DNA of 64,000 bases from Candidatus Avispirillum sp. (GCA_045631345.1 JAZQUP010000021.1:39207-103206); one strand, 5' to 3'. Shown: positions 40,130 to 56,552, numbered from the stretch's first letter. Numbers and translations: made by a program. Notes: generated by a model from the letters alone, not told the origin.

Positions 40130-40636
40130 ATGAACAAGATTCATGAAAGAATAAAAAAGTCAAGAGAAGCTAAGGGCATTAGCATTGAAAAGCTTGCCAA
40201 AAGGATGAAAATAGAAGAAAAGCTTCTTGAGGATTGGGAAAGCGGAGCACTTGAGCCGGATAACAAAAGCGCCAATAAGCTTGCGGACATTCTTAATGTT
40301 TCAAGCGATTATTTGCTTTTCGGCGTTGATAATGCCAGCGGTATTCACACAATGTTTCCCACCAAGGGAAAGCCTCAGCCTGCGGGCGCAGAGTCTATTT
40401 TAACTCTTGTTTCAGCTCTGCTTTTGTTTATTGGTCTTGGTGGACTTATAATGCTCATTGTTATGACAGGCTCTCGTCTTGTAATGTCTGATGCAGGCTT
40501 CTGGGAGTTTTTCATTCTCAGCGGCTCAATTTATTCTGCCCTTGCATTTATTGCTATTGCAGTTTTGGGCGCAGCTGCAGGAATTGCGGCTGTTGTGATC
40601 ATATCTAAGAAAAAAGGAAAAGGAAAAAGAAGATGA
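40130..40636 (+). CDS. XRE-family HTH protein with two C-terminal TM helices
   Basis: RIK..R..G.S..LA..WE.G..P..LA..VS.DYLL, then hydrophobic segments. Confidence 0.85.
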   Translation: MNKIHERIKKSREAKGISIEKLAKRMKIEEKLLEDWESGALEPDNKSANKLADILNVSSDYLLFGVDNASGIHTMFPTKGKPQPAGAESILTLVSALLLFIGLGGLIMLIVMTGSRLVMSDAGFWEFFILSGSIYSALAFIAIAVLGAAAGIAAVVIISKKKGKGKRR

Positions 40637-41931
40637 AAAAGCTTTTGAAAATATTCTCTTTTGTTCTTGTTATTGCAATTATGGTAAGCTCCTTTGCTGC
40701 CTGCAAAAAGGATGGAGATGAGAACGAAGAAGAAGAGGCAAAAACATTCACAACTGCGGAAGAAAATCCCGAGGGCGCAAAAGTTGTTGATAAGGACCTG
40801 CAGTTTGGCGATTTTTATTATGCCACCTATGATGATAACACAGTTACCATAACTAACTATGCAGGTGATGACGAAAACGTTAAGATACCGATTGAGATTG
40901 ACGGAAAAACAGTAACAACTATCGGAGAGGGCTCTTTCTATCAGAAAACAACTGTTACATCCCTTGAGATTCCCGATAGCGTTAAGTACTATGAAAAGTA
41001 TGCTTTCTATGGAATGTCAGCGCTCACAGAGGCTTTTGTTCCTGAGGAAAACACAATTATTCGTGAGGGTACATTTGTTGATTGCACAGCTCTTGAAAAG
41101 GTAACTATTCCCGAAACAGTTACAGCGATCGAGGATGGTGCCTTCTATAATTGCGTAGCGCTGAAGGAAATTAATATTCCTGCTTCTGTAACATATATCG
41201 GCAGTTATAGCTTTGCGGCTTGTAAGGATGTAAAAAGCATCGTTGTTCCTGAGGGCGTAACAACTGCGGCGGCGTATGCTTTCCGTGAGTGCACAGCCCT
41301 TGAAAGCATAAATCTTCCCGAATCTCTCACAACTATTTCCGATGGACTCCTTTACGGATGCACAGCACTTACAGAGCTTAAGTTCAGCGGTACAACAAAA
41401 AAGATTGGTGCGGCAGCATTCTATGAATGCAGCGCAATCAAGAGCCTCACTCTTCCCGAGTCTCTCACAAGCATAGGCGAATATGCCTTTGCTTATTGCG
41501 AAGCTCTTGAGGAACTTCATATTCCCGATGGCGTCAGCGTTCTTGGCGGATATACAGTTGCATACAGCGATAATATCAAAAAGGTTAATATTCCTGCAAG
41601 CATTGAGGTTGTTCCCGCTTCTATGATGACTCTTTGCAAGAATATAGAAGAAATCATTATTCACGAAAATGTAACTGATATTGACGAATATGCCTTTGCA
41701 GGCTGCGAAAAGGTGAAGAGCATCACTCTGCCCAGTTCTCTCACATATATAGGCGCATATGCCTTTGCTGAAATGGCAGGTCTTGAAGAAATCTATGTGC
41801 CCGATTCCGTAACAGGAGTTGGCGAGGGTATTTTTGCTGAGACTGCAAATGTAACTGTAAAGTGCCATAAGGATAATATCGTACACGAATATGTCGAGGC
41901 AAATTCAATTAAATTTGAGTTGGTAGACTGA
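40633..41931 (+). CDS. BspA-type leucine-rich-repeat lipoprotein
   Basis: Lipobox FAAC; repeated LPESLTxIGxxAFxxCxxL. Confidence 0.9.
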   Translation: MKKLLKIFSFVLVIAIMVSSFAACKKDGDENEEEEAKTFTTAEENPEGAKVVDKDLQFGDFYYATYDDNTVTITNYAGDDENVKIPIEIDGKTVTTIGEGSFYQKTTVTSLEIPDSVKYYEKYAFYGMSALTEAFVPEENTIIREGTFVDCTALEKVTIPETVTAIEDGAFYNCVALKEINIPASVTYIGSYSFAACKDVKSIVVPEGVTTAAAYAFRECTALESINLPESLTTISDGLLYGCTALTELKFSGTTKKIGAAAFYECSAIKSLTLPESLTSIGEYAFAYCEALEELHIPDGVSVLGGYTVAYSDNIKKVNIPASIEVVPASMMTLCKNIEEIIIHENVTDIDEYAFAGCEKVKSITLPSSLTYIGAYAFAEMAGLEEIYVPDSVTGVGEGIFAETANVTVKCHKDNIVHEYVEANSIKFELVD

Positions 41932-44194: not shown

Positions 44195-45607
44195 ATGGCA
44201 AATATGAGTAATGTAAAAAATCCTATGCCAACTCTTGATGCGGCCATCCGTGCCCGCTGCTTTGAAGAGGTTGCAACAGGATATAGTGAAGAAACAGCAA
44301 TAGACGAGGCGGCAAGATGCCTTAATTGCAAAAAGCCCTTTTGCGTTGAGGGCTGCCCCGTTAAAATACATATCCCTGAGTTTATTGCAAAGGTGAGAGA
44401 GGGCGATTTTGAGGGAGCTTATCAGATAATCAGTAAGTCTTCATCACTTCCCGCAGTTTGCGGAAGAGTTTGCCCTCAGGAATCTCAGTGCGAGTCCAAA
44501 TGCGTCAGAGGAATCAAGGGTGATCCTGTTGGCATCGGCCGCCTTGAGCGATTTGTTGCCGATTGGCATAACACATTCTGCACAGAGCCCCCCGTGCGTC
44601 CTGAGCCTAACGGCCATAAGGTTGCCGTTGTAGGCAGCGGTCCCTCCGGCCTCACATGCGCAGGCGACCTTGCTAAGCTTGGATATAGCGTAACAGTTTT
44701 TGAAGCGCTTCACACAGCAGGCGGAGTGCTAGTATATGGAATTCCCGAATTTCGTCTCCCTAAGGCAATAGTTGCCCGTGAGGTTGAAACCCTCAAGGCC
44801 CTTGGCGTTGAGATCAAAACTAATATGATCATCGGTAAAACTCTCACTATAGACGAGCTCTTTGAAGAGGGCTATGAGGCTGTGTTTGTTGGAAGCGGCG
44901 CAGGTCTGCCTCGCTTTATGGGCATCCCCGGCGAAAGCCTGAAGGGCGTTTATTCTGCAAACGAATTCCTCACAAGAAGCAATCTTATGAAGGCATATCG
45001 TGATGATAGCGCAACACCTATTATGAAGGCAAAGAACGTTGCGGTTGTTGGCGGCGGAAACGTTGCTATGGACGCTGCACGAACAGCTCTTCGTCTCGGA
45101 GCAGAAAACGTTTATATCGTTTATCGTCGTTCTCTTGAGGAGCTTCCTGCAAGACATGAAGAGGTTGAGCATGCAATGGAAGAGGGTATACAGTTCAAGC
45201 TGCTCACCAATCCCACAAAGATTATCGGCTTCAACGATGAAAATGATAAGAGAAATCCCAGAAACGGATTTGTTTCAGGAATGGAATGTGTTGAAATGGA
45301 GCTTGGCGAGCCTGATGCAAGCGGCAGAAGAAGCCCTGTTGTTAAAGAAGGCAGCGAGTTTGTTCTTCCTGTTGATTGCGTTATTATGTCTATCGGAACA
45401 AGCCCCAATCCTCTTATAAAGGACACAACTGACGGACTTGACGTAAACCGCCGTGGCGGAATTATTGTTGAGGAAGAAACAGGCCTCACATCCCGCGAGG
45501 GAGTTTATGCAGGCGGCGACGTTGTAACAGGAGCAGCAACGGTTATTCTTGCCATGGGTGCAGGAAAAACAGCTGCAAAGGCAATTGATGAAAAGTTAAG
45601 TAAATAA
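44195..45607 (+). CDS. nfnB: NfnB/SudA (GltD-like) subunit of electron-bifurcating transhydrogenase
   Basis: RCLNC..CVEGCP, CGRVCPQE.QCE, GSGPSGL, GGGNVAMD, AGGD..G; paired with nfnA. Confidence 0.85.
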   Translation: MANMSNVKNPMPTLDAAIRARCFEEVATGYSEETAIDEAARCLNCKKPFCVEGCPVKIHIPEFIAKVREGDFEGAYQIISKSSSLPAVCGRVCPQESQCESKCVRGIKGDPVGIGRLERFVADWHNTFCTEPPVRPEPNGHKVAVVGSGPSGLTCAGDLAKLGYSVTVFEALHTAGGVLVYGIPEFRLPKAIVAREVETLKALGVEIKTNMIIGKTLTIDELFEEGYEAVFVGSGAGLPRFMGIPGESLKGVYSANEFLTRSNLMKAYRDDSATPIMKAKNVAVVGGGNVAMDAARTALRLGAENVYIVYRRSLEELPARHEEVEHAMEEGIQFKLLTNPTKIIGFNDENDKRNPRNGFVSGMECVEMELGEPDASGRRSPVVKEGSEFVLPVDCVIMSIGTSPNPLIKDTTDGLDVNRRGGIIVEEETGLTSREGVYAGGDVVTGAATVILAMGAGKTAAKAIDEKLSK

Positions 45608-45646: not shown

Positions 45647-46942
45647 TTATGCTTGTAGGTTCTTTTTGAGCAAAAGAAGGTCTTTTGCGTTAACTATGCC
45701 GTTATTGTCCATATCTACTGCGGATATGTTAATTTCACCAATAGTCAATATCTGAGCCAGATATTTTTTAACAAGAAGAAGATCAAGTGAGTTCACTTCT
45801 TCATCACCGTCAGCATCACCGGGGATGATAACAGGAGTTGTGTTAAGCTGAGGGTATGCATAGTCGGAATCTGAGTCAATTTTCCAAACATTTTCAAAAT
45901 CAAAGCCAACAAATGTGGATTGCTGAGCTAATTCTTCGGCAGTGCATTTAATTGCTGTGTCGTTGCCTTCTGAAATACCCTTGGAGACATTATCAATATA
46001 ATAGCAGTTTAACATTTGAATTCTATAGCCGTAACCAGCTGCGATTCCACATTTGTAACCCCATTGGTTGGATACTATATTGCCTGTATTATAACAGTTT
46101 TTAATATCAAGATTGTCTGCTCCTCCGACAATGCCTCCGATACGTGTCATAGTAGGAGTGTTAGAATAAAGATTTCCTGCAGTATAGCAGTCTGATATGG
46201 TTGCAGAATAGCAAAATCCTGCAATACCACCCAATCCGGAGGAGTCACCGGCAGGGGCTTTTATATTAACAAAGCTATAGCATTTTTCTATAAGAGATTT
46301 TGAAGTGGGGTCTTCACCTTGGGCAGGTTCACCGCCGTCAAAATTTCCAACTATTCCACCTGCGCAAACTCCACCATAGCCTTCGGCTGATCCCAGGATC
46401 CTGCCGGTACTGTAGCAGTTTGTTATAGTGCTTTTTAATGCTCCGCCTGTAATACCGCCTATGTAAACACTTTTGGATGACGAAGCAGCGCCGAGAAAGT
46501 CAATATCAATCATTCCCAGATTTTTGATTGTTCCGCTTATATAACCGAAAAGACCTACATACAAATTGTTGCTTGATGAAGAAGCATTGATGTAAAGATT
46601 TTTTATGGTGTGGTAGTTTCCGTCAAAGGAGCCTGTGAATGGATCGGATTTTTTTCCTATAGGTTCAAATCCTGCGCCTTCGTTGTAGAAATCTCCACCC
46701 TCAGCGAAATCGGTGTAGTTAAATTCAATGTCAAACAAAAGTTTGAAATGAGAGCTGAGATAGTTTCGCACATTGTTGAGCTGTTCCTTGTTTACGATGA
46801 GATAAGGGTCATCCTCTGTGCCGCTGCCGCCTGCGAATCCCTGAGAGTTCTTTGTTGTTGCATAAGCTGTTATTGGCTGAGTGATTGTGAATATCATGGC
46901 TAGAGCAACCAATAATGCCAGCATCTTTTTTGCTTTTTTCAT
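45647..46942 (-). CDS. Secreted GLUG-motif protein with C-terminal dockerin
   Basis: Signal peptide; GGSGTEDDPYLI, FTGSFDGN, VGLFG, GGIxG repeats; GDADGDEEVNSLD / DMDNNGIVNAKD. Confidence 0.85.
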   Translation of the reverse strand: MKKAKKMLALLVALAMIFTITQPITAYATTKNSQGFAGGSGTEDDPYLIVNKEQLNNVRNYLSSHFKLLFDIEFNYTDFAEGGDFYNEGAGFEPIGKKSDPFTGSFDGNYHTIKNLYINASSSSNNLYVGLFGYISGTIKNLGMIDIDFLGAASSSKSVYIGGITGGALKSTITNCYSTGRILGSAEGYGGVCAGGIVGNFDGGEPAQGEDPTSKSLIEKCYSFVNIKAPAGDSSGLGGIAGFCYSATISDCYTAGNLYSNTPTMTRIGGIVGGADNLDIKNCYNTGNIVSNQWGYKCGIAAGYGYRIQMLNCYYIDNVSKGISEGNDTAIKCTAEELAQQSTFVGFDFENVWKIDSDSDYAYPQLNTTPVIIPGDADGDEEVNSLDLLLVKKYLAQILTIGEINISAVDMDNNGIVNAKDLLLLKKNLQA

Positions 46943-47142
46943 TTTAAAGCTCCTTTGATGGATTCAAACAAGAATTATAAACATTTATTTACAGCAACTT
47001 CAAAATGCATGTTTTCTTGCTCTAACACATTGAGTATAGCATAAATTTTTATAGTGAACAAGATAATATAGAGAAAATTAAAGTGTTATGAGTTAGCTGT
47101 AATAATTAGTTTTACTCTGTTCAGAAACCAGCTTTGATATTT

Positions 47143-47307
47143 GTGTACAAAAGACGCAAAACAGAACAAAAAAGGCTCCCGAACCAAGGTTCAGGAGTCT
47201 CAAAAGCGTTCCAAAATACACGATTTAGGGGGATTACTTAGAAGCCTCGATCATAGCAACTGCAACAGCAACTGTCATACTTAGCCTGTGGGGTGTTACC
47301 AGCGCCG
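47143..47307 (-). repeat. GGGtGRT 3'-end copy R1 with type-A terminator
   Basis: TTACTTAGAAGCCTCGATCATAGCAACTGCAACAGCAACTGTCATAC..GTTACCAGCGCCG at 47234-47307; left part homologous to 48801-48895. Confidence 0.9.
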
Positions 47308-47550
47308 CCCACGCGTGAAACGCGCGGTTATTTCGAAGAAAAGCCCTCTCTAAACCTCTATTTTATCAAGTTTTAATGTGTTTTACTCGTGCCTTTGTGG
47401 ACACAATGTGGACGAATTTTCGTCCACATTTATTATACATATTTTTATGCCCATCTGCAACAAATACGGTAATCATTTTGTACATAGGTGGGGAGAATTT
47501 TGAAATTCATAATGTTATCATAAACGCATCAAACCAAAGGAGGATGTTTT

Positions 47551-48081
47551 ATGATAACACAGCCGGATAAGAAAATTTCCGGAGACAGTAAAAAGTGGAA
47601 AAACGTTGTGTCAGTTTTTCTGCCAAATACTTGCAAACCTTGTGAGGAAAAGCACGGTACGATTTTTCCTTACGATGCAATATTTAAAGGATGACATCAC
47701 AGGTGCCAATGCTATCTTGCAAGAATGAGAACAAAGAAAGTAGGAACCGCCACACAGGACGGACTCAGCGGTGTTGATGCTTTTGTTATGTACACAGGCC
47801 AATTGCCTGCCAACTATGTGACAAAAGATGAAGCAAAAATGCTCGGGTGGAAATCCAAAAAAGGAAATCTTGACAAGGTTTTACCACAAAAATGCATCGG
47901 CGGCGATATTTTTTACAACGGACAAGGAAAATTACCGCAAAAAGATGATAGAATATGGTATGAAGCGGATATTGACTATATTTCAGGCTACAGAAACGAT
48001 TCAAGAATACTTTATTCTAACGACGGTCTTATCTTCGTCACTTACGATCACTATAAAACATTTTATGAAATAACAAATTGA
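47551..48081 (+). pseudogene. MuF-like (TCxxC..HG..HxxCxC) plus barnase-type RNase fusion interrupted by in-frame TGA
   Basis: AGGAGG RBS and ATG 47551, TGA 47692-47694, same frame continues into GGDIF..WYEADIDY..RILYSNDG..DHY RNase (ORF 47725-48081). Confidence 0.75.
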
Positions 48082-48089
48082 GGAGAATT

Positions 48090-48407
48090 ATGGATACATA
48101 CAATTACAAAGTACATTTTCCAAAAGTAAATACATTTTCTGATCTGCACGGAATATTAAAGGAAAGCCTTGATCTTCCATTTTATTACGGAGCAAATCTT
48201 GATGCGCTTTATGATTGCCTATGTGAGCTTGCCCGCGATAAAGTAACTATTGAGATTACGGGATACGAGAATGTCAGAGCCTTTTATCCCGAATACAGCG
48301 AGAAACTATTAACAGTTTTTTATCACTTCAAGCACTATGTTGAGGAATGCGCTCACCTTGTTACAATCAGCGTTGAAGAAAATGGAGAGATCACATTTAT
48401 TGAGTAA
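48090..48407 (+). CDS. Barstar-family RNase inhibitor 1
   Basis: LH..LK..L.LP.YYGANLDALYDCL; RBS GAGGAG. Confidence 0.9.
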   Translation: MDTYNYKVHFPKVNTFSDLHGILKESLDLPFYYGANLDALYDCLCELARDKVTIEITGYENVRAFYPEYSEKLLTVFYHFKHYVEECAHLVTISVEENGEITFIE

Positions 48408-48432
48408 GCCTATAATTTAAGGCGAGGACATA

Positions 48433-48750
48433 ATGGAAACATACAATTACAAAGTACATTTTACAAAAATAAACTCTTTTTCAGAACTGCACGGAATACT
48501 GAAAGAAAGCCTTAATCTTCCCTATTACTATGGAGAAAACCTTGATGCACTATACGATTGTCTCTGTGAAATTGGATGTAGTAAGGTTACTATTGATATA
48601 ACAGGATTTGAAAATGTGCGTTCGTTTTATCCCGAATACAGTGAAAAGCTGCTTTCTGTTTTTTGCGATTTTAAGCATTATGCAGAAGAATATTTACACC
48701 TTAAAACCATTAGTGTAGAAGAAAACGGAAAGATTACTTATATTGAATAA
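48433..48750 (+). CDS. Barstar-family RNase inhibitor 2
   Basis: Paralogue of previous gene (YYGENLDALYDCL). Confidence 0.9.
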   Translation: METYNYKVHFTKINSFSELHGILKESLNLPYYYGENLDALYDCLCEIGCSKVTIDITGFENVRSFYPEYSEKLLSVFCDFKHYAEEYLHLKTISVEENGKITYIE

Positions 48751-48790
48751 AATGAAAAAGGAGATGCTGTGGTATCTCCTTTTTCATTTT
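48749..48790 (+). terminator. Terminator; palindrome family member
   Basis: AAAATGAAAAAGGAGATGC-TGTG-GTATCTCCTTTTTCATTTT. Confidence 0.8.
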
Positions 48791-48800
48791 TATTATCCAA

Positions 48801-48942
48801 GTGGACAAAAGCAAAAACAAAACAAAAAAGACTCCCGATGTGAGATTCGGGAGTCTTAAAAATCGTTCCAAAATGCCCGATTTCAGGGCATCTTAATTAC
48901 TTAGAAGCCTTGACCCAAGCATACGCAACAGCAACTGTCATA
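48801..48942 (-). repeat. GGGtGRT 3'-end copy R2 with type-A terminator
   Basis: TTACTTAGAAGCCTTGACCCAAGCATACGCAACAGCAACTGTCATA at 48897; hairpin AAGACTCCCGA..TCGGGAGTCTT. Confidence 0.88.
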
Positions 48943-48986
48943 TGGAATGACCTGCGTCACACTTGCCTTTGAAGTTAAGCTAAAAC

Positions 48987-49028
48987 TTACTTGGAAGCTT
49001 CCTCAATAGCTACAGCAACCGCTAACAT
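48987..49028 (-). repeat. Recoded GGGtGRT 3'-end copy R2b (MLAVAVAIEEASK*)
   Basis: Reverse complement ATG TTA GCG GTT GCT GTA GCT ATT GAG GAA GCT TCC AAG TAA, preceded by AGGGAG. Confidence 0.8.
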
Positions 49029-49225
49029 AATTTTCTCCCTGTTTAAAATATTCTTTATTATGACAAAACGTCACCTGTGACCATAGCTTAACATATCTCG
49101 CCTGCGGTATCAACTAAAGCGCGTTTTTTGCCACCGAAAGTTTTTATGTTGATTCGTCATTTTCAAATCAACAATACTGTGCTATAATCAGTATATAAAG
49201 TTAATTTCTTGTGCGAGGTAATGAT

Positions 49226-51313
49226 ATGACAAGAGCAGAAGCCGCAAAAAAAGCCCGCGAGCTTGTTTCAAAAATGACAGTAGAGGAAAAGGCCGACCAG
49301 CTTCTTTACTGCAGCGATCCCATCGAGAGGCTTGGAATTAACGGCTACAACTGGTGGAACGAAGCCCTGCACGGTGTAGCAAGAGCAGGCGTTGCAACGG
49401 TATTTCCCCAGGCAATAGGCCTTGCCGCATCCTTTGACCCCGAGTTCGTGGGGGAGGTTGCCGACGTTATCTCCACCGAGGCGCGCGCCAAGTACAACTG
49501 CCACGTTGAGGAAAAGGATTTCGGCATATACAAGGGCCTTACCATGTGGTCGCCCAACATCAATATTTTCCGCGATCCCCGTTGGGGCCGCGGTCAGGAG
49601 ACCTACGGAGAGGACCCCTACCTTACGTCTAGCGTTGGATGCGAGTTTGTTCGCGGCCTTCAGGGCGACGGAGAATTTTTAAAGTGCTCTGCCTGCGCAA
49701 AGCACTTGGCCGTTCACAGCGGCCCCGAAAAGCTCAGACACACCTTTAACGCTATCTCCTCACAAAAGGATCTTTTCGAGACCTATCTTCCCGCATTTGA
49801 AAGGCTTGTCAAGGATGCAAAGGTAGAGGGCGTAATGGGCGCCTACAACCGCACAAACGACGAGGCGTGCTGCGCCCACAGCCAGCTTATGGACGACGTG
49901 CTTTTTAAGCAGTGGGGCTTTGAGGGATATTTCGTTTCCGACTGCGGCGCAATATGCAATTTCCATAAGACACATATGATCACCCACGACGGCCCTCACT
50001 CTGCCGCCCTCGCCCTCAGCCACAGATGCAACGTAAACTGCGGCGGCGCATATACCAATATTCTGAAGGCACTTGAGGACGGGCTTGTAACGGAGGAGCT
50101 TATTGACGAAAACCTTGTAAAGGCGCTCACCACAAGAGTTCTTCTCGGCGAATTTGAAGAGGTTCGCCCCTATACGGATATCGAATACGATATCGTTGAC
50201 TGCGAGGAGCACCGCCTTAAAAATCTTGAGGCGGCCCGCCGCTCTCTCGTTCTTCTCAAAAACGACGGTACCCTGCCCCTCAGTCGCAAGGAGCTGAAAA
50301 GGGTTGCCGTCATCGGCCCCAACGCCATGTCCCACTCTGCCCTCTCCGGCAACTACTGCGGACTTGCATCCGAGTACGTCACCGTCACCGACGGTATCAG
50401 AAGAGCCCTGCCCGATGCGCGCATCTACTACGCTATGGGCACACGCCTTTTCGATGATGATACGGAGCACGCAGGCGGCATCAGCACAGCGGCAGAGGCG
50501 GCAAAGCGCGCAGACGTAGCTGTAGTTTGCCTCGGCCTTGACCCCAACCACGAGGGGGAGGAGCTGACCGTCTCAAACGACTACTGCGACGGCGGCGACA
50601 GAACTACAGTTGCCCTTCCCGCAATACAGAAAAAGCTTCTTTCTGCGGTATGCGATGCCTGCGATAAGGTAATTGCCGTAGTTATGCAGGGAAGCTGCTG
50701 TGATATCGGAGAGGAGCTTCTTGGAAGAGTAAGCGCCCTCGTCCACGCCTGGTACCCCGGCGCACAGGGAGGAAATGCCATAGCCGAGCTTATCCTCGGA
50801 GACTTCTCCCCCAGCGGCCGCCTGCCCGTCACCTTCTATCGCGAGGACGACGAGATCAAGGATATCTGCGACTACGATATGGAGGGCCGCACCTACCGAT
50901 TTATCAATACCGAGCCCCTCTTCCCCTTCGGCTACGGACTCGGCTATTCCGAGTTTAAATATACGGATGCTACTCTTCTCTCAAGGGACAGCGAGGGTAT
51001 TACCCTCTCGGTCAAGGTAACGAATACGGGTAAAATGGATGCAAGAGAGATAACGCAGGTGTACGCCTCCTTTACCGATAGCAGGACCCGTACTCCCAAC
51101 TTCCAGCTTTGCGCCATTTCATCAAATATGATCAGATCAGGAGAGAGTGCAACACTTACTCTCAAGGTCTCCGACTATTGGATCAAGGCGGTTAACGAAA
51201 AGGGCGAGCGTATCACCCCAAACGGTAGCCTCTCCCTCTTTATCGGCGGCCACCAGCCCGACAAAAAAAGCACCCACCTTTGCGGCGAGTGCCTTGAGAT
51301 TAAAATGAATTGA
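49226..51313 (+). CDS. GH3 beta-xylosidase/beta-glucosidase
   Basis: WWNEALHG, RDPRWGRGQETYGEDP, CAKH, SDCGA, WYPG, FPFGYGL, C-terminal Fn3-like domain; GC-rich. Confidence 0.95.
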   Translation: MTRAEAAKKARELVSKMTVEEKADQLLYCSDPIERLGINGYNWWNEALHGVARAGVATVFPQAIGLAASFDPEFVGEVADVISTEARAKYNCHVEEKDFGIYKGLTMWSPNINIFRDPRWGRGQETYGEDPYLTSSVGCEFVRGLQGDGEFLKCSACAKHLAVHSGPEKLRHTFNAISSQKDLFETYLPAFERLVKDAKVEGVMGAYNRTNDEACCAHSQLMDDVLFKQWGFEGYFVSDCGAICNFHKTHMITHDGPHSAALALSHRCNVNCGGAYTNILKALEDGLVTEELIDENLVKALTTRVLLGEFEEVRPYTDIEYDIVDCEEHRLKNLEAARRSLVLLKNDGTLPLSRKELKRVAVIGPNAMSHSALSGNYCGLASEYVTVTDGIRRALPDARIYYAMGTRLFDDDTEHAGGISTAAEAAKRADVAVVCLGLDPNHEGEELTVSNDYCDGGDRTTVALPAIQKKLLSAVCDACDKVIAVVMQGSCCDIGEELLGRVSALVHAWYPGAQGGNAIAELILGDFSPSGRLPVTFYREDDEIKDICDYDMEGRTYRFINTEPLFPFGYGLGYSEFKYTDATLLSRDSEGITLSVKVTNTGKMDAREITQVYASFTDSRTRTPNFQLCAISSNMIRSGESATLTLKVSDYWIKAVNEKGERITPNGSLSLFIGGHQPDKKSTHLCGECLEIKMN

Positions 51314-51321
51314 TTAAAGTA

Positions 51322-51347
51322 AAAGGAGATGCCATGGCATCTCCTTT
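51322..51347 (+). terminator. Perfect palindrome; family member
   Basis: AAAGGAGATGCCATGGCATCTCCTTT. Confidence 0.8.
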
Positions 51348-51364
51348 CCTTTTTCTAAAAAAAC

Positions 51365-51619
51365 AAAAAACTCCTTGATTTCTCAAGGATTTTTTATTTT
51401 GTAATGTTAAATTACTTAGAAGCCTTGACCATAGCAACTGCAACAGCAACTGTCATACGTAGCCTGTGGGTTGTTACCGGCAACCATGAGACACATCATT
51501 TCTTTATCAAAACCGATGGTAAAAACCTAAAAAGTGCCAGAAGCAAATGCTATCAAGGGTATTTTTAATATGAAATTGTGTTAAACACATCTTTTATATG
51601 TGTTCCCAAGCCAATTATA
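51365..51619 (-). repeat. GGGtGRT 3'-end copy R3 (about 255 bp, type-B terminator)
   Basis: Direct repeat of 53633-53889 at offset about 2270. Confidence 0.95.
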
Positions 51620-51627
51620 ATTTCTTT

Positions 51628-53538
51628 TTATTCTACAATAACACGCTCTCCTGTAGCTTTTCCTTCTTTTATCAACTGTCCGTTTTTAAATACCTGCCAG
51701 GTGCTTCCCTTAATGCGAATATCAAAGGATGCGTTACAAACGTTGATTTTTGAAAGAGAAATATCGCCAAATTCTGTAATATTGGGATTAAATGAAAAAG
51801 AATTGAGGCTTTCGGGTTCAATTCCAAAAATCCCCTCAGAAACAATTCTTGCAAAAAGGGCGCTTTCTCCTGAAAGATGACGTTTTCCACCTTCGGGATA
51901 TGCTTCAACGGCGTAAGGTACTCGGTCACAGAGAAGTCGTTTGTTGCAATAGCGAAGAAGCGGCTCTTTCATTACGTCAGCCTTGCCCATTATAAATGCA
52001 CATTTCATTCCGTAAAGAGTGGAACGGTCCCATATAGTATGGCTGGTATTTTCTTCAGATATTTCGCAAGTGAGCATTCCTTCCTCTGTCCAGAGGTGTT
52101 CGGAAAGCATTGCGTTTAATGTATCTTCGGCTCTGTTTTTTATGCCCATGCAAAGAGGTAAGCAGATCCAGGCGCGAAGAGTATCGTATCCCTTTGAATA
52201 CCGATAGGTATCAAAATTGTGAAGTGTAGCGCCGAAATATTTGTCTATTGCTTTACAAAGAGCGTCAGCACGTTGTGTATATATTGCTGCGCTTTTGTTG
52301 TCTCCGAGAGAAAGTGCAAGCTTTGTGGCAAGTCGGAGACCGCCGTAGCAAAGACTGGAGGTTGAAAGATTTGCTTTATTGTCTGTGGGGAATCTTCCTT
52401 CAAGCTCATCGTTTTCGGATAAAATAACTCCGTCCTCAGACTTTTGTTTTTCGCAGTATTCAGCACACCACTGTATTGCCGGATAAAGCTCTTCGGCTAT
52501 GTTTCTGTCGCCAAGAAGCAAGCAGAAAAGTGAAGCTCCGTAAAGATACATTGCGCTGTCACCGCGATCTCCTGCGCCTTCCCATATATCAAGACCTTCA
52601 GCGATGATAGATGAGGGTAGACGATAATAATTATCGGACATAAAGGGTATGTATGCGCGATATGCATTAAGAGATGCCTCTATTGCAGTTTTGTCTCCTG
52701 TCATTGCAAAGTGAGGACCTGCATATTCGATCTGGTCATTACACCATATGGCCGCATAGTATGCATATCCGCCGGGGCTGTGAAATTTACCGGATAAGGT
52801 TTCAAAAATGCTTTCAGCAGCTCTCAACTTTGAAAGTCTGAGCATAACGTCAAGCTCTGGGTGTGAGCTTTTAAGAATAAGTGCCCCATCGCAAAGTGCT
52901 GATATTCTCTCTCTTCTCTTTTCAAGTTCTTTAATATGATCTGGAATATCGCTGATATTTCTTCCAATATCGCAGTAATAATAGATTGCAAACTCTACGC
53001 TCTCTCCCTTTTTGAGGGAAACTTCTTCTTTAAGCGTGTGGTGGATCTTTGCAACGTAAACGCCCTTTGTGCCTCTGCCGTAGGAATATACGGTATCACA
53101 AGGCTTGGAAGCTGATATCGTAACGTCTTCTGTTGCAGTTACAGTAATAGTTTCGAGGCAGAACGCAAGGTCGACAGAGGGGAAAAAACAGCGTTTTGTT
53201 GCAAAGCCGCAGTCGGTGTCGCATTCAATGCTCAAAACCCCGTCAAAGGTGAACTTTCGGGGCTGTTCGGAAACTGCTTTGCGGTTTGCGATAAGATGGG
53301 GGATTTCGCTATCGTCAAAAAGCACGTTATACGTTGCGTGAGTATTATTGGGAATAGTTCTTAGAGTGGGGAAAAAGCAGTGGCGAGAAAGAGCTAGCTC
53401 GCCGTCCTCATTTACTCCGTACGTAACTATGAAATCAGTATAGAGACCGCTCATTTCAATATTGTCAAAATGGCACTGTCCTTCTTTAACGTTCCATGCT
53501 ATATGCTGATCTTCAATATTCCAGATTTTTTCTGTCAT
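51628..53538 (-). CDS. Six-hairpin glycosidase-like protein
   Basis: HSPGG..YYAAIWCNDQ.EY, GAGDRGD, DELEGRFP, EAYPEG..RHLSGES; RBS GGAGG. Confidence 0.7.
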   Translation of the reverse strand: MTEKIWNIEDQHIAWNVKEGQCHFDNIEMSGLYTDFIVTYGVNEDGELALSRHCFFPTLRTIPNNTHATYNVLFDDSEIPHLIANRKAVSEQPRKFTFDGVLSIECDTDCGFATKRCFFPSVDLAFCLETITVTATEDVTISASKPCDTVYSYGRGTKGVYVAKIHHTLKEEVSLKKGESVEFAIYYYCDIGRNISDIPDHIKELEKRRERISALCDGALILKSSHPELDVMLRLSKLRAAESIFETLSGKFHSPGGYAYYAAIWCNDQIEYAGPHFAMTGDKTAIEASLNAYRAYIPFMSDNYYRLPSSIIAEGLDIWEGAGDRGDSAMYLYGASLFCLLLGDRNIAEELYPAIQWCAEYCEKQKSEDGVILSENDELEGRFPTDNKANLSTSSLCYGGLRLATKLALSLGDNKSAAIYTQRADALCKAIDKYFGATLHNFDTYRYSKGYDTLRAWICLPLCMGIKNRAEDTLNAMLSEHLWTEEGMLTCEISEENTSHTIWDRSTLYGMKCAFIMGKADVMKEPLLRYCNKRLLCDRVPYAVEAYPEGGKRHLSGESALFARIVSEGIFGIEPESLNSFSFNPNITEFGDISLSKINVCNASFDIRIKGSTWQVFKNGQLIKEGKATGERVIVE

Positions 53539-53632
53539 TTTAAGTCCTCCGTTTGCTTGCAATTGTAGCTATTAGATACTACCTAAGAAAATTATACCAC
53601 AATATTAGTACTCCCACAATAAAAATACAAGC

Positions 53633-53889
53633 AAAAAACTCCTTGATTGCTCAAGGAGTTTTTGTTGTTTGTAATATTAAATTACTTAGAAGCCTCGACC
53701 ATAGCAACAGCTACTGCAACAGTCATACGTAGCCTGTGGGTTGTTACCAGCAACCATGAGACCCATCAGCTCTTTATCAAAACTGATGGTGAAAACCTAA
53801 AAAGTGCCAGAAGCCAATGCTATCAAGGATATTTTTAATATGAAATTGTGTTAAACACATCTTTTATATGTGTTCCCCGACCCATTATA
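53633..53889 (-). repeat. GGGtGRT 3'-end copy R4 (about 255 bp, type-B terminator)
   Basis: AAAAAACTCCTTGA-TTGC-TCAAGGAGTTTTT, then TTACTTAGAAGCC.. matching 54521-54658. Confidence 0.95.
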
Positions 53890-53985
53890 GATCAACTTTT
53901 ATCAAGAAGTCAACATCTTTTTAACATCTTTTGAGGATGTTTGAGGCATCTTTTAATATCTTTATAATCAAATATGTTTGTAAGT

Positions 53986-54333
53986 TTAAAAGCATTCTTG
54001 ATAGCTTTCCAAAGTTAACTTTCCAAAATAGCTCTCAATATCTCTTTTATCAGTGATATTCTTGTCAAAGTAAAGGCTTTCGATTACAGCAACTTCTATA
54101 AGATTCTTAACTTTTTCGTCGCCATTCTTTAACATATCTTCAACAAATTCAAATATTTCAATTAGAGTTTTCTTGCTGTTAATTTTAGTTGTTTCAACAA
54201 TAAATTTTATAAACTTTGATTCATAAAAAATGTATGGTAAATCTTTATAGTAGTCCTTGTCTAATTCGTAGATTTGCTTTAGCTCAGGAAAACGATTAAC
54301 AAGGATTGTTATTGCCTCATCATAGTTATACAT
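53986..54333 (-). CDS. Small AT-rich helical protein, immunity-protein-like
   Basis: RBS GAGGAG; L..RFPEL..LPY..IFEFVE.ML..GDE.V.N.IEV..IESL pattern. Confidence 0.65.
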   Translation of the reverse strand: MYNYDEAITILVNRFPELKQIYELDKDYYKDLPYIFYESKFIKFIVETTKINSKKTLIEIFEFVEDMLKNGDEKVKNLIEVAVIESLYFDKNITDKRDIESYFGKLTLESYQECF

Positions 54334-54359
54334 AAAACGCTCCTCTAATATTCTTTTTG

Positions 54360-54491
54360 TCACTCATACAACCTACGCATTTTATCAAGGTACTCTTTAA
54401 ACTCTTCCACTTGCGGAGAGGGCGAGAGTATTTTTACTTTATTGCCTAGGCCGCAGAGCCAGCCGTAAAACTGATTGCTGACCTTGATACA
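54360..54491 (-). pseudogene. C-terminal remnant of a WYL-domain regulator
   Basis: Frame IKVSNQFYGWLCGLGNKVKILSPSPQVEEFKEYLDKMRRLYE* with no start codon. Confidence 0.65.
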
Positions 54492-54519
54492 TTATACCAC
54501 AATAAAAATATACGTTCAA
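54491..54519 (-). promoter_or_regulatory. Sigma-A promoter reading into the array
   Basis: Minus strand TTGAAC-17 bp-TATAAT with TG extension. Confidence 0.7.
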
Positions 54520-54520
54520 C

Positions 54521-54552
54521 AAAAAAACTCCTTGATTTATCAAGGAGTTTTT
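54521..54552 (-). terminator. GGGtGRT gene terminator (type B)
   Basis: AAAAAAACTCCTTGA-TTTA-TCAAGGAGTTTTT. Confidence 0.85.
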
Positions 54553-54568
54553 ATTTTGTAATATTAAA

Positions 54569-55567
54569 TTACTTAGAAGCCTCTTCGATAGCAACAGCAA
54601 CAGCAACTGTCATACCAACCATGGGGTTGTTACCAGCGCCGATGAGACCCATCATCTCTACGTGAGCGGGTACGGAGGAAGAACCTGCGAACTGTGCGTC
54701 GCCGTGCATTCTACCCATTGTATCTGTCATACCGTAGGAAGCGGGACCTGCTGCCATGTTATCGGGATGGAGTGTACGACCTGTACCACCACCGGATGCA
54801 ACGGAGAAGTACTTAACGCCGTTTTCGATAGCCCACTTCTTATATGTACCTGCAACGGGGTGCTGGAATCTTGTGGGGTTAGTAGAGTTACCTGTGATGG
54901 AAACGCCTACGTTTTCAAGTCTCATAATAGCAACGCCTTCGGGTACGCTATCAGAACCATAGCACTTAACGTCTGCACGAGGACCATTGGAGTAAGCTGT
55001 TTCCTTAACAACTGTAACTTCCTCTGTTGCGGGGTCAAACTGTGTCTGAACGTATGTAAAGCCGTTGATACGGGAGATGATCATTGCTGCGTCCTTACCG
55101 AGACCGTTGAGGATAACACGGAGGGGCTTTGTTCTAACCTTATTAGCGTTGAGGGCGATCTTGATTGCGCCTTCAGCTGCTGCGAAGGATTCGTGACCTG
55201 CGAGGAAGCAGAAGCATTCTGTTTCTTCGGAAAGAAGCATGGAGCCGAGGTTACCATGGCCGAGACCAACCTTACGGTTTTCAGCAACAGAACCGGGGAT
55301 ACAGAAGGACTGGAGGCCGATACCGATAGCGGCAGCAGCGTCAGCAGCCTTTGTGCAGCCCTTCTTGATTGCGATAGCTGCGCCTACTGTATATGCCCAC
55401 TTTGCATTTTCAAATGCGATAGGCTGTGTTTCTTCTACGATCTTATAGGGGTCGATACCCTTTGCATCACAGATTTCCTTACACTCGTCGATAGAGGAAA
55501 TACCGTATTCAGCGAGAGCGGCAAGAATTTTCGCCTCGCGTCTTTCATAACCTTCAAATTTAGCCAT
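54569..55567 (-). CDS. GGGtGRT protein
   Basis: SGGGTGRTLHPDN, FLAGHESFAAAEGA, GNSTNPTRFQHP. Confidence 0.95.
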   Translation of the reverse strand: MAKFEGYERREAKILAALAEYGISSIDECKEICDAKGIDPYKIVEETQPIAFENAKWAYTVGAAIAIKKGCTKAADAAAAIGIGLQSFCIPGSVAENRKVGLGHGNLGSMLLSEETECFCFLAGHESFAAAEGAIKIALNANKVRTKPLRVILNGLGKDAAMIISRINGFTYVQTQFDPATEEVTVVKETAYSNGPRADVKCYGSDSVPEGVAIMRLENVGVSITGNSTNPTRFQHPVAGTYKKWAIENGVKYFSVASGGGTGRTLHPDNMAAGPASYGMTDTMGRMHGDAQFAGSSSVPAHVEMMGLIGAGNNPMVGMTVAVAVAIEEASK

Positions 55568-55587
55568 TTTGTAGTTCCTCCTTCTAA

Positions 55588-56286
55588 TTATTCTTTACGG
55601 GGGTCGATGTACTTAACAGCGTCAGCAAATCTGCCGTATGTACCCTTGGACTTTTCGTATGCTGTTGTGGGGTCGTCGCCCTTCTTGATGAAGTCTGTCA
55701 TCTTGCCGAGAGAAACGAACTCATAACCGATAACCTGATCGTCAGCATCGAGAGCCATTCTTGTGCAGTAGCCTTCTGTCATTTCAAGGTATCTAACGCC
55801 CTTTGCCTTTGTACCGTACATTGTACCAACCATGGAGCGCTCGCCCTTACCGTGGTCTTCCATGCCTGCGCCGATTACGAGACCGCCTTCGGAGAAAGCA
55901 GACTGGCTACGGCCGTATACGATCTGGAGGAACAGTTCGCGCATTGCTGTGTTGATAGCATCGCAAACAAGGTCTGTATTAAGTGCTTCGAGAAGTGTCT
56001 TTCCGGGGAGGATCTCAGCTGCCATAGCTGCAGAGTGAGTCATACCGGAGCAACCGATTGTTTCAACGAGAGCCTCTTCGATGATGCCTTCCTTAACGTT
56101 AAGGGAAAGCTTACAAGCGCCCTGCTGAGGTGCACACCAGCCCACACCGTGTGTGTAAGCGGAGATGTCAGAAATCTGCTTTGCCTGAATCCACTTGCCC
56201 TCTTCGGGAATGGGAGCGGGACCGTGGTTGGGGCCCTTAGCAACGCAGCACATGTTTTCAACTTCTTTTGAATAAACTAAGCTCAT
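55588..56286 (-). CDS. NifU/IscU-like scaffold-domain protein (GGGtGRT partner)
   Basis: HGPAPIPEEG, GWCAPQQGACKL, GCSGMTHS, DLVCDAIN. Confidence 0.85.
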   Translation of the reverse strand: MSLVYSKEVENMCCVAKGPNHGPAPIPEEGKWIQAKQISDISAYTHGVGWCAPQQGACKLSLNVKEGIIEEALVETIGCSGMTHSAAMAAEILPGKTLLEALNTDLVCDAINTAMRELFLQIVYGRSQSAFSEGGLVIGAGMEDHGKGERSMVGTMYGTKAKGVRYLEMTEGYCTRMALDADDQVIGYEFVSLGKMTDFIKKGDDPTTAYEKSKGTYGRFADAVKYIDPRKE

Positions 56287-56552
56287 TGTTGGAAGTCTCC
56301 TTTATGTAATTGAATTGTTTTCACACATATCATTATACATTGTCTTTCTCTCTTTTTCAATAACTATTGTCAAAAAAAATGCAATTATTGCGCCGCCAAG
56401 CCAAAAATCCTGTTGTTTTCCTTCTTTGGCTTTGCTTGCGGGTGTTTTTCTGAGATATTTATGGGGATAGTATGTATGTTGGAGAGCATCCTTCCGCATT
56501 TAAAACAGATAAATTTTTCAGCGATTTTTGTGCGGAAGGATGCTTAAAATAT

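What the first reader, a model, noticed from the sequence alone, without database searches (positions are those of the whole stretch)
45647..54658. Integrase-free gene-cassette array built on repeated copies of the GGGtGRT gene 3' end
Seen: the end of the GGGtGRT gene (TTACTTAGAAGCC..GCAACTGTCAT, from 54569) recurs in the same orientation at 53682, 51412, 48987, 48897 and 47234. Four of these copies carry their own terminator (type B at 53633/51365 like the native 54521; type A near 48825/47168). Between them lie unrelated cargoes: WYL remnant + immunity-like gene; six-hairpin glycosidase; GC-rich GH3; MuF-RNase + 2 barstars. The GLUG-dockerin gene lies beyond the last copy. No recombinase is present in the window. 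Known analogues: tandem accretion of ICE/CIME elements at protein-gene 3' ends (e.g. fda in Streptococcus thermophilus) and integron arrays. Inference: the GGGtGRT 3' end is an att hotspot where 1-2.5 kb cassettes are serially captured and possibly excised by a recombinase acting in trans. I do not know of this site being described.
Basis: partly seen in the sequence, partly recalled or inferred. Interest (0 to 1): 0.9.

Follow-up and report, generated by a model that had tools for sequence, protein, structure and literature searches.

The report
Integration hotspot at GGGtGRT gene end
The end of a conserved gut-bacterial gene (GGGtGRT) is the docking site of a dedicated family of small integrating DNA elements, and this window holds a stack of four or five such insertions that have lost their integrase, a known kind of genomic island at a site not found described before.

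Summary
The last ~45-92 nt of the GGGtGRT gene (54569-55567, minus strand) recur in the same orientation at 53682, 51412, 48987 (weak), 48897 and 47234. Shuffles give none, and the copies occur nowhere else in this genome. Four copies carry terminators, and unrelated cargo lies between them.

The att-hotspot reading is supported. In a same-genus relative (G044), a 320-aa Xer-like tyrosine integrase sits directly behind the gene, in a 10.5-kb element bounded by a ~103-nt direct repeat. Of 71 loci with an integrase at least 50% identical, 61 have a GGGtGRT 3' end 79-315 nt upstream. None of 9 distant integrases does. Across 44-46 loci the last ~87 nt of the gene diverge with the integrase and not with the gene body. 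The switch lies about 85-115 nt before the stop, where displaced copies begin.

The window's units look like decayed or integrase-less (CIME-like) elements. One keeps the last 48 codons of the element's WYL gene. No integrase of this family is in this 85%-complete genome, and excision in trans is untested.

This is a known kind of structure (tandem accretion, as at Dehalococcoides ssrA or Streptococcus fda) at a site I did not find in print.

The parts
54569..55567 (-). GGGtGRT gene (332 aa), the target gene whose 3' end is the attachment site
   Evidence: Pfam PF14057, E 3.3e-191, full length. Present in 364 of 401 family genomes sampled.
55588..56286 (-). NifU-like partner gene, conserved upstream neighbour of GGGtGRT (context, not part of the array)
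   Evidence: Weak NifU_N match. Found next to GGGtGRT in the relatives examined.
54569..54661 (-). Current gene end (region H, last 90 nt plus stop). Inferred to be element-borne (attL side).
   Evidence: Displaced copies begin at model position 10-15 of a 105-nt model. In 44-46 integrase-adjacent loci the last ~87 nt track integrase divergence, not gene-body divergence.
54641..54656 (-). Candidate recombination core, a 5-nt inverted repeat around a 6-nt spacer (GATGA-TGGGTC-TCATC on the gene strand)
   Evidence: Read from the sequence. Homology of the displaced copies starts here, and the half-site RATGA is kept in the element-side flanks. The crossover position is an inference.
54523..54552 (.). 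Type B bidirectional terminator behind the current gene end
   Evidence: The same stop-plus-terminator module recurs at 53633-53688 and 51365-51418 and twice in G044, but in none of the 80 integrase loci.
54363..54506 (-). Remnant of a WYL-WCX regulator gene (last 48 codons)
   Evidence: tblastn with the G044 element's WYL protein, residues 327-374, 75% identity, E 1.5e-19. blastn gives 92% over 123 nt.
53986..54363 (-). Cargo of unit A: DUF7674 protein, 125 aa
   Evidence: Pfam PF24722, E 3.6e-21. No PADLOC hit.
53774..53971 (-). Tail of unit A (element-side arm, class 1)
   Evidence: 77% identical to the end of the G044 integrase element (L047 4300-4605). 91% identical to the unit B tail over the shared 230 nt (D3).
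53682..53773 (-). Displaced gene end 1 (92 nt), followed by the type B terminator at 53634-53663
51628..53562 (-). Cargo of unit B: 644-aa protein of unknown family
   Evidence: No Pfam, PADLOC or PDB sequence match. Weak NCBIfam glucoamylase-like hit, E 4e-4.
51504..51619 (-). Tail of unit B (class 1 arm)
   Evidence: D3 repeat, 91% identical to 53774-53889.
51412..51503 (-). Displaced gene end 2 (92 nt), followed by the type B terminator at 51372-51389
   Evidence: The head (terminator B plus GGAGATGC hairpin) is shared with the G044 copy at L047 3968.
49160..51347 (+). GC-rich GH3 segment (gene 49211-51313), a recent import that lacks att ends of its own
   Evidence: Pfam GH3 N, C and Fn3-like domains. 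98.1% identical over 2188 nt to G023 (L042 4146-6333), while the neighbours are 77-89% identical. GC is 54-57%.
48897..49026 (-). Two truncated gene ends in tandem (48987 about 40 nt, 48897 46 nt), followed by the terminator at 48828-48857
   Evidence: Homologous to the double copy at L047 748/658 of G044 (80% over 131 nt).
47725..48750 (+). Cargo of unit D: barnase-type RNase (118 aa) and two barstar genes
   Evidence: Pfam PF00545 and 2 x PF01337. The same unit is flanked by gene-end copies in G023.
47308..47439 (-). Tail of unit D (class 3 arm, ends in a GC-rich hairpin)
   Evidence: 87-89% identical to L042 8417-8547 and 7204-7293 and to L043. The junction lies at model position 33.
47234..47307 (-). 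Last displaced gene end (74 nt), followed by the type A terminator at 47176-47197
45647..46942 (-). GLUG-dockerin gene beyond the last copy. Not shown to belong to the array.
   Evidence: Pfam. nhmmer found no further copy in the window at E up to 1e-3.

Best explanation
The 3' end of the GGGtGRT gene is the chromosomal attachment site (attB) of a dedicated family of small integrative elements. These elements encode a compact Xer-like tyrosine integrase.

An element recombines with the gene about 90 nt before its stop codon. The likely site is a short inverted-repeat core, GATGA-TGGGTC-TCATC. The element brings its own copy of the last ~90 nt, so the gene stays whole, and it pushes the previous gene end downstream. 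Repeated integrations stack up, so each displaced gene end marks the border of one former element.

In this window four or five such units are stacked, and all have lost the integrase. They are decayed, CIME-like units. Each has a head (gene end plus terminator), one to three cargo genes and a conserved tail. Homologous exchange between the repeated ends, and at least one unrelated import (the GH3 gene), have reshaped the array since.

Shown: the repeats, the integrase-site link, the replacement of the gene end, and the remnant. Inferred: the exact core, the order of events, and any present-day mobility.
For: (1) Repeats. There are five co-oriented copies of the gene end, none expected by chance, and they occur only in this locus.

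(2) An integrase sits at the site in G044, a same-genus relative whose GGGtGRT is 98% identical. A 320-aa PF00589 protein starts 147 nt behind the stop codon. Its sequence shows R...HxxR...H...Y residues (motif recalled). The element of about 10.5 kb ends in a WYL-WCX gene, a tail and a direct repeat of about 103 nt with 1 mismatch.

(3) Specificity. 71 loci from many Clostridia MAGs hold an integrase at least 50% identical. 61 of them have a GGGtGRT end 79-315 nt upstream of the integrase start (56 whole genes, 5 displaced fragments). In 8 the gene end lies 0.87-2.1 kb upstream. 2 have none: in one the contig starts inside the integrase, and in the other the integrase is truncated. None of 9 integrases under 33% identity has the gene nearby.

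(4) Precise junction. In the 18 junction rows at model positions 10-15 of a 105-nt model (15 once the same G044 junctions held under both L046 and L047 are counted once), homology to the gene starts 91-96 nt before the end of the stop.

(5) Gene-end replacement. In 46 loci, divergence of the last 87 nt correlates with integrase divergence (r 0.42, partial r 0.42, permutation p 0.001). It does not correlate with the adjacent 300 nt of the gene (r 0.11, partial 0.08, p 0.18). In 60-nt sliding windows over 44 loci, the switch lies between -116 and -86 nt.

(6) Decay. Window 54363-54506 is the last 48 codons of the element's WYL gene. The unit A tail is 77% identical to the G044 element end. There is no integrase remnant in the window.

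(7) Variable content. Cargo downstream of the gene differs in G004, G023, G024 and G044. Displaced copies occur in 8 of 32 genus genomes, yet the integrase occurs in only 1 of 32.

(8) G000 and G044 share att scaffolds that hold different cargo.
Against: No recombinase of this family is in the window or in the own assembly, which is 84.6% complete. The best match is 25% identical, so nothing shows that the array can move now.

The stop-plus-terminator-B head of units A, B and C is not found behind any of the 80 loci. These units are therefore not simple one-step deletions of the integrase elements seen so far.

Two junction types do not fit the main core. One lies at model position 33 (47234, plus three copies in G023 and G010). 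The other lies at position 61 (48897 and G044 copy 658). They may be deletions or the work of other recombinases.

Three displaced copies (53682, 51412, 47234) share a +1 frame shift relative to the gene (read). As they stand, they cannot be untouched former gene ends.

The GH3 segment moved without att ends.

The Mantel-type tests ignore relatedness among loci, and the loci come from one collection.

No circular form, empty-site read or excision joint was obtained.
Confidence: 0.85

Rival explanations
1. The integrase-less units are a working class of gene cassettes. A visiting element's integrase excises and re-inserts them in trans or in cis at any att copy. This would be true CIME or integron-like behaviour rather than debris.
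For: Units A and B share both head and tail (91% over 230 nt) but carry different cargo. The non-coding class 3 tail plus copy is 87-89% identical between G000 and G023, while the RNase-barstar coding DNA is 77% identical. G000 and G044 share att scaffolds with different cargo between them. Integrase-less single-gene units sit between the gene and an integrase element in other genomes: a TIR protein in L068 and a 175-aa protein in L088. The terminator-B head is absent from integrase-bearing loci.
Against: No excision product was seen. No integrase of the family is in this genome. Unit A carries a gene remnant, which is typical of decay. Homologs of the 644-aa cargo in metagenome contigs (60-63% identical) have no att copy beside them, though those contigs are short. 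Shared heads and tails can also arise by unequal homologous exchange.
Confidence: 0.3
2. The array arose mainly by homologous recombination. The repeated 46-92-nt gene ends and terminators would serve as homology arms for unequal crossing-over, or for cassette exchange after DNA uptake, with no site-specific recombinase involved.
For: The copies within this genome resemble each other more than they resemble copies elsewhere, and three share the same +1 shift. The terminator-B module is lineage-specific. The GH3 segment moved without att ends.
Against: This does not explain why a specific integrase sits at this gene end in 61 of 71 loci. It does not explain the fixed junction in many genera. 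It does not explain why the gene's last ~87 nt track the integrase. Homologous exchange is better seen as a secondary process that reshapes the array.
Confidence: 0.08
3. Assembly artefact: the metagenome-assembled contig joins pieces of different strains at the repeated gene ends.
For: The genome is a MAG. Contigs of several relatives break inside or at the gene. The public contigs laid on the region cover it only in pieces.
Against: The copies differ by 7-32% from each other, too much for k-mer collapse. Independent assemblies (G004, G023, G024, G044 and many loci) show the same kind of array.
Confidence: 0.03
4. An integron or a Xer/dif-module system: cassettes bounded by folded attC-like or dif-like sites.
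For: The integrase's best NCBIfam profiles are XerA/XerC/XerD and integron-integrase, all far below cut-off. The units are small and mostly hold single genes.
Against: There is no integrase next to an attI-like site in the window. The repeats are copies of a gene end, not imperfect palindromes of attC type. The genes lie in both orientations and carry their own terminators. No 28-nt dif-like site was identified.
Confidence: 0.02

Closest known systems
Dehalococcoides ssrA genomic islands (McMurdie et al. 2011, PMC3146451; passages read)
   Same: Tandem islands lie downstream of one conserved single-copy gene, and each is bounded by a direct repeat of that gene's 3' end. The integration module lies next to attL. 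About half the islands have it: 16 with a module and 15 without. The authors interpret the latter as possible cis-mobilizable elements or fixed remnants.
   Different: The target there is the tmRNA gene, the repeat is only 20 bp, and the recombinase is a 540-aa serine integrase. Here the target is a protein-coding gene, the repeat is ~92-103 nt and restores the reading frame, and the recombinase is a 320-aa Xer-like tyrosine enzyme.
ICESt1/ICESt3-type elements and CIMEs at the 3' end of fda in Streptococcus thermophilus; the accretion model (review PMC5704250, passages read; the primary papers Pavlovic 2004 and Bellanger 2011 seen only as references)
   Same: A tyrosine integrase targets the 3' end of a protein gene. 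An element decays to an integrase-less unit that keeps attL and attR. A further element then integrates beside it, giving a tandem.
   Different: Those are conjugative elements of tens of kb. The elements here are 3.5-10.5 kb, and no conjugation or mobilisation gene was detected. Their mode of transfer is unknown.
Tycheposons of Prochlorococcus (bioRxiv 10.1101/2020.12.28.424599; search listing and abstract start only; details recalled)
   Same: Hotspot islands made of stacked small cargo-carrying integrative elements, with partial repeats of the target gene.
   Different: As recalled, they target tRNA genes and have different integrases and a replication module.
Integrons (recalled)
   Same: An array of small, mostly single-gene units at one chromosomal site.
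   Different: There is no IntI/attI platform and no attC sites. Here each unit carries its own terminator, and the genes point both ways.

Membership tests
Site-specific integrative element / genomic island with a tyrosine integrase | Direct repeats of the target sequence bound the element | tested here: met
   Five co-oriented gene-end copies in the window. A ~103-nt repeat with 1 mismatch bounds the G044 element.
Site-specific integrative element / genomic island with a tyrosine integrase | An integrase gene lies next to one att site | tested here: not met
   None in the window or on contig C21. Met in relative G044 and in 61 of 71 loci elsewhere.
Site-specific integrative element / genomic island with a tyrosine integrase | The same target site is used across hosts | tested here: met
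   61 of 71 loci have the gene end within 315 nt of the integrase, 8 more within 2.1 kb, and 0 of 9 distant integrases do. The junction lies at model position 10-15.
Site-specific integrative element / genomic island with a tyrosine integrase | Excision to a circular form and an empty site | not testable with these tools
   The public runs hold at most 27% of the sampled words. The contig joints between copies have sides of 30 nt or less at 90% likeness, which is unreliable by the tool's own note.
CIME (cis-mobilizable element), as defined in PMC5704250 | [quoted passage not shown] | tested here: met
   No recombinase in units A-D.
CIME (cis-mobilizable element), as defined in PMC5704250 | Retains attL and attR | tested here: inconclusive
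   Copies 53682 and 51412 keep the candidate core, with 1-2 changes. Copies 47234, 48897 and 48987 start downstream of it. Function was not tested.
CIME (cis-mobilizable element), as defined in PMC5704250 | Derived by decay of an ICE or IME | tested here: inconclusive
   Unit A holds a WYL gene remnant and the element tail. Units B-D show no remnant. The parent elements show no transfer genes, so they are not shown to be ICEs or IMEs.
CIME (cis-mobilizable element), as defined in PMC5704250 | Mobilised together with an element that integrates beside it | not testable with these tools
   Only static tandems of integrase-less units next to integrase elements were seen (L068, L088, G044).
Integron | IntI integrase with an adjacent attI and promoter | tested here: not met
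   No tyrosine recombinase on the contig. The related integrase scores far below the integron-integrase cut-offs (45 vs 265 bits).
Integron | Cassettes bounded by attC sites | tested here: not met
   The unit borders are copies of a coding 3' end plus terminators.
ICE / prophage | A conjugation module, or capsid and terminase genes | tested here: not met
   Pfam and PHROGs scans of the G044 element ORFs that were submitted gave an integrase, a weak replication-initiator or DnaD-like match, invertase fragments, NUDIX, BNR and WYL. No relaxase, T4SS or virion genes appeared. The integrase is at most 33% identical to any phage record.

The most novel reading that the evidence does not exclude
The integrase-less units may be a distinct class of trans-mobilised gene cassettes rather than debris. 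Each would have a ~60-150-nt head (gene end plus terminator B), a single cargo gene and a ~120-200-nt tail. They would be swapped in and out of a fixed scaffold of att copies by the Xer-like integrase of visiting mini-elements. That would make the end of a highly expressed housekeeping gene an integron-like gene-capture platform shared across gut Clostridia. More than one recombinase type may use sub-sites of the same 100 nt, since junctions occur at -92, -74 and -45 and small serine recombinases sit at element ends in G023, G010 and L119.
Probability: 0.2. Interest if true: 0.75.

Novelty: new member of a known kind. Interest (0 to 1): 0.45.

Why it matters
It names a concrete, widely used integration site and its matching compact integrase in uncultured gut and rumen Clostridia, where few genetic tools exist. 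The integrase occurs in 17 of 400 sampled family genomes across 10 of 76 genera, and in other families too. A 320-aa integrase with a ~100-nt site in a conserved gene is a candidate single-copy integration system.

It also explains a hotspot of gene-content variation that carries glycosidases, toxin-immunity pairs, TIR, WYL and NUDIX-type genes. And it explains why assemblies of these organisms often break at this gene.

The mechanism itself, tandem accretion at a conserved gene's 3' end with integrase-less remnants, is already known from other bacteria.

Tried and rejected
Reads. The look-up of sequencing runs listed 24 runs. 20 hold part of the stretch, and none holds more than 0.27 of the sampled words. 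Laying contigs of 4 runs from 4 studies showed cover mainly of the GH3 segment and the GGGtGRT/NifU-like genes. Joints between gene-end copies (for example 51463 to 54624, 47419 to 54577) appeared in one run only. Their sides were 30 nt or less at 90% likeness, often with other letters between, which the tool flags as unreliable. I draw no conclusion on excision or habitat from them.

Cargo as a marker. The 644-aa protein gave 6 metagenome loci. Three were 60-63% identical and one 44%. None has a gene-end copy (nhmmer, E up to 1) or an integrase, but the contigs are 2-14 kb. This was uninformative.

Class 3 tail. A DNA search of 400 order genomes found the 75-nt gene-end part in 17 other genomes. 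The tail itself turned up only as one 42-nt match in G031. Whether class 3 marks another recombinase therefore stays open.

The small serine recombinase (186 aa) beside the copies in G023 and G010 was considered as the class 3 integrase. A resolvase also sits beside a class 1-type junction in L119, so the link is not specific. The idea is kept only within the novel reading.

The GGAGATGC hairpin was considered as a second cassette border. There are only 5 in the own genome, 4 of them on C21. It looks like a shared bidirectional terminator and was not pursued.

PADLOC gave no defence-system match for the 644-aa or DUF7674 proteins. The PDB sequence search of the 644-aa protein gave nothing. No phage record holds an integrase more than 33% identical.

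The integron and dif-module readings were rejected, as set out under the rivals.

Literature. 'GGGtGRT' gave 13 papers, mostly proteomics by title. One passage read lists the gene among high-scoring hits. The 5 papers listed of the 8 that hold 'PF14057' are not about this protein family; three concern Plasmodium. Subscription journals and supplementary files were not searchable, so a prior description cannot be excluded.

My count of about 88 of 364 family genomes with two or more GGGtGRT matches was made by hand. It includes genes split over contigs, so it is an upper bound for arrays.

Full report
OBSERVATION. The gene at 54569-55567 (minus strand) is a full-length GGGtGRT protein (PF14057, E 3e-191). 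Its 3' end recurs on the same strand at 53682, 51412, 48897 and 47234. A 46-nt degenerate pattern gives 5 matches including the gene itself, against 0 in 100 shuffles. A further short copy lies at 48987. Copies 53682 and 51412 keep 92 nt, 47234 keeps 74 nt and 48897 keeps 46 nt. In the whole own assembly (G000, 1.76 Mb, 47 contigs, 84.6% complete) the copies occur only here. Between the copies lie five sets of cargo:
- a WYL-gene remnant plus a DUF7674 gene
- a 644-aa protein with no family
- a GC-rich GH3 gene
- a barnase-type RNase with two barstars
- beyond the last copy, a GLUG-dockerin gene
No tyrosine or serine recombinase lies on this contig.

RELATIVES. The genus holds 32 species genomes, and one record is titled Candidatus Avispirillum sp.. 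Extra gene-end copies are found in G004, G024 and G044. Gene-end pieces with no assembled gene beside them lie on contigs of G010, G014 and G023. The piece in G018 lies at a contig end and may be the gene's own cut end. The 12 genus genomes whose GGGtGRT is 85-88% identical to the window's show none. What lies downstream of the gene differs in every genome examined:
- G004 has a 6-kb set of GNAT, formyltransferase, aldo-keto reductase, MazG-like, kinase and NUDIX genes that ends at a displaced copy.
- G023 has the same RNase-barstar unit flanked by two copies. It also has the GH3 segment at 98% identity, but in another position.

THE INTEGRASE. In G044 the GGGtGRT gene (98% identical) is followed after 147 nt by a 320-aa tyrosine recombinase. 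It carries PF00589 with SAM-like N-terminal domains. Its best NCBIfam profiles are XerA/XerC/XerD, all below cut-off. The element of about 10.5 kb holds the following:
- small ORFs
- a weak replication-initiator or DnaD-like protein
- invertase fragments
- BNR and NUDIX proteins
- a 473-aa protein
- at the far end, a WYL-WCX regulator
It is bounded by a ~103-nt direct repeat of the gene end with one mismatch.

A scan of one genome per species with this integrase returned 80 loci. 71 of them have an integrase at least 50% identical. They come from MAGs labelled Eubacteriales, Acutalibacteraceae, Oscillospiraceae, Christensenellaceae, Ruminococcus and others. In 61 of the 71, a GGGtGRT end (56 whole genes, 5 displaced fragments) stops 79-315 nt before the integrase start. 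In 8 the gene end lies 0.87-2.1 kb upstream. 2 have none: one contig starts inside the integrase, and one integrase is truncated. None of the 9 loci with integrases under 33% identity has the gene nearby. In a sample of 400 family genomes at least 90% complete, 17 hold this integrase, in 10 of 76 genera. For the 12 integrase matches whose gene row was listed, the gene is on the same contig. It lies within about 170 nt in 10 cases and at 0.76-1.2 kb in 2. These genomes overlap the collection and are not independent of it. In the genus, only G044 of 32 genomes has the integrase. The own genome's best match is 25% identical.

WHERE RECOMBINATION HAPPENS. A 105-nt profile of the gene end finds displaced copies whose homology starts at profile positions 10-15. 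This holds for the 18 junction rows listed there (15 once the same G044 junctions held under both L046 and L047 are counted once), from several genera. The start falls on GAGATGATGGGTCTCATC, which holds a 5-nt inverted repeat around a 6-nt spacer (window 54641-54656). The element-side flanks keep the half-site RATGA but otherwise differ. Across 46 integrase-adjacent loci, divergence of the last 87 nt of the gene correlates with integrase divergence (r 0.42, partial r 0.42, permutation p 0.001). It does not correlate with the neighbouring 300 nt of the gene (r 0.11, partial 0.08, p 0.18). In 60-nt windows over 44 loci, correlation with the distant gene body stays at 0.76-0.87 up to the window -146..-86. 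It falls to 0.11-0.14 from the window -86..-26 on, while correlation with the integrase rises from 0.05 or less to 0.38-0.41. The window -116..-56 is intermediate. So the last ~90 nt of an occupied gene belong to the element. This is the classical scheme in which the element restores the gene end it displaces. These tests do not correct for relatedness among loci.

ELEMENT ARCHITECTURE. Integrase-bearing elements can be very small: 3.5 kb in L059, 4.0 kb in L121, 4.2 kb in L114 and 4.9 kb in L119. The far-end gene is a WYL-WCX regulator in G044, L059 and L114, or a small serine recombinase in L119. Cargo includes an AraC-type regulator, SDR and FAD-oxidoreductase genes. Integrase-less single-gene units bounded by gene-end copies also occur beside integrase elements elsewhere: a 201-aa TIR protein in L068 and a 175-aa protein in L088.

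WHAT THE WINDOW HOLDS. Reading from the gene outward:
- Unit A runs from 54661 to 53774. It comprises the gene end, terminator B, the last 48 codons of a WYL gene (75% to G044's), DUF7674, and a tail 77% identical to the G044 element's end.
- Unit B comprises copy 53682, terminator B, the 644-aa gene, and a tail 91% identical to that of unit A.
- Unit C comprises copy 51412, terminator B, a GGAGATGC hairpin, the GH3 segment, and the truncated double copy 48987/48897.
- Unit D comprises a terminator, two barstars, the RNase, a class 3 tail, copy 47234 and terminator A.
Unit A is plainly a deletion derivative of an integrase-bearing element.

G000 and G044 share parts of the scaffold. These are the terminator-B-plus-hairpin head of unit C and the double copy. 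Between these parts G044 has three unrelated genes, whereas G000 has GH3. So cargo has been exchanged within a conserved frame of att copies. The GH3 segment itself (49160-51347) is 98% identical to G023's while its neighbours are 77-89% identical. It is bounded by the hairpin and not by att copies, so it arrived by another route.

NOT EXPLAINED.
(a) The stop-plus-terminator-B head occurs three times here and twice in G044, but in none of the 80 loci. Units A-C are therefore not one-step deletions of the known integrase elements.
(b) Copies 53682, 51412 and 47234 share a one-base length difference between GGTAAC and ATGAC relative to the gene (read), so they are out of frame. Gene conversion or unequal exchange among copies would explain this.
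(c) Junctions at profile position 33 (47234, two in G023, one in G010) and at position 61 (48897, G044 658) lie beyond the candidate core.
(d) The transfer route of the elements is unknown.

COMPARISON WITH WHAT IS KNOWN. The closest described system is the set of tandem ssrA islands of Dehalococcoides. These have repeats of the target's 3' end, with 16 islands carrying and 15 lacking an integration module, and the authors discuss the latter as possible cis-mobilizable elements (PMC3146451, passages). The three-step model for streptococcal elements fits the window. It runs from integration, through decay to a CIME that keeps attL and attR, to integration of a further element (PMC5704250, passages). 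The differences here are the target (a protein gene of unknown function that gut metaproteome papers list, by titles), the long frame-restoring repeat, the compact Xer-like integrase and the very small element size. I found no description of this site: 'GGGtGRT' gave 13 papers, none on integration by title or abstract start, with one passage read. Subscription journals and supplements were not searchable.

VERDICT. The att-hotspot and accretion reading is supported, with an integrase family now tied to the site. The idea of integrase-free capture and trans-excision is neither shown nor excluded. It is a new member of a known kind, of moderate interest.

LIMITS. All genomes are metagenome assemblies.

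Noticed in passing
window 49160-51347; L042 4146-6333: The GH3 segment is 98.1% identical between two species-level genomes, while the flanking units are 77-89% identical. It is GC-rich (54-57%) and ends exactly at a GGAGATGC hairpin terminator, not at att copies. Contigs of four public gut runs cover this segment at about 98-99% likeness but barely cover its neighbours. It looks like a recent import by an unknown route.
   Followed up: partly
window 48760-48779, 51325-51344, 14284-14303, about 28696; L042 2890-2920, 4108-4138, 6300-6333, 6997-7024: A bidirectional terminator with the same stem (AAAGGAGATGC-N3-4-GCATCTCCTTT) recurs at unit borders. There are 5 in the own genome, 4 of them on this contig, and 4 within 11.7 kb of G023.
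   Followed up: partly
window 54522-56339 against L031, L045 and L047; window 44195-45607: The 1.8-kb NifU-like plus GGGtGRT module is about 90% identical in DNA (98-100% in GGGtGRT protein) to G004, G024 and G044. A core gltD-like gene is only 78-79% identical in protein to the same genomes, about as far as to genomes whose GGGtGRT is 87% identical. Neither flank of the module is syntenic within the genus. Either the gene is unusually conserved, or the module itself has been exchanged.
   Followed up: partly
L042 8569-9129; L043 1719-2276; L119 7732-8481; L047 9458-10045: Small serine recombinases (186-249 aa, PF00239) sit at the far end of elements, directly beside a displaced gene end, in G023, G010 and L119. 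Invertase fragments lie inside the G044 element. Their role is unknown.
   Followed up: partly
window 53682-53773, 51412-51503, 47234-47307: Three displaced gene ends share the same one-base length difference relative to the gene, which puts them out of frame. Displaced copies in other genomes are in frame.
   Followed up: no
G011:C222, G013:C52, G022:C49, G036:C2, G042:C253, G018:C1: Contigs of several relatives end inside or at the GGGtGRT gene. This fits strain-level variation at the site breaking the assemblies.
   Followed up: no
L074, L079, L081, L109 (about 1 kb between the gene end and the integrase): In these four loci a BspA-type leucine-rich-repeat gene fragment, similar to window ORF 40633-41931, lies on the opposite strand between the GGGtGRT end and the integrase. 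No gene-end copy was detected between them.
   Followed up: no
window 48087-48386 and 48430-48729: The two barstar genes are a tandem duplication (300 nt, 75% identical). G023 has the same pair at 80% identity.
   Followed up: no
window 14516-22537: A very long open reading frame (2673 aa) on the plus strand. Not examined.
   Followed up: no
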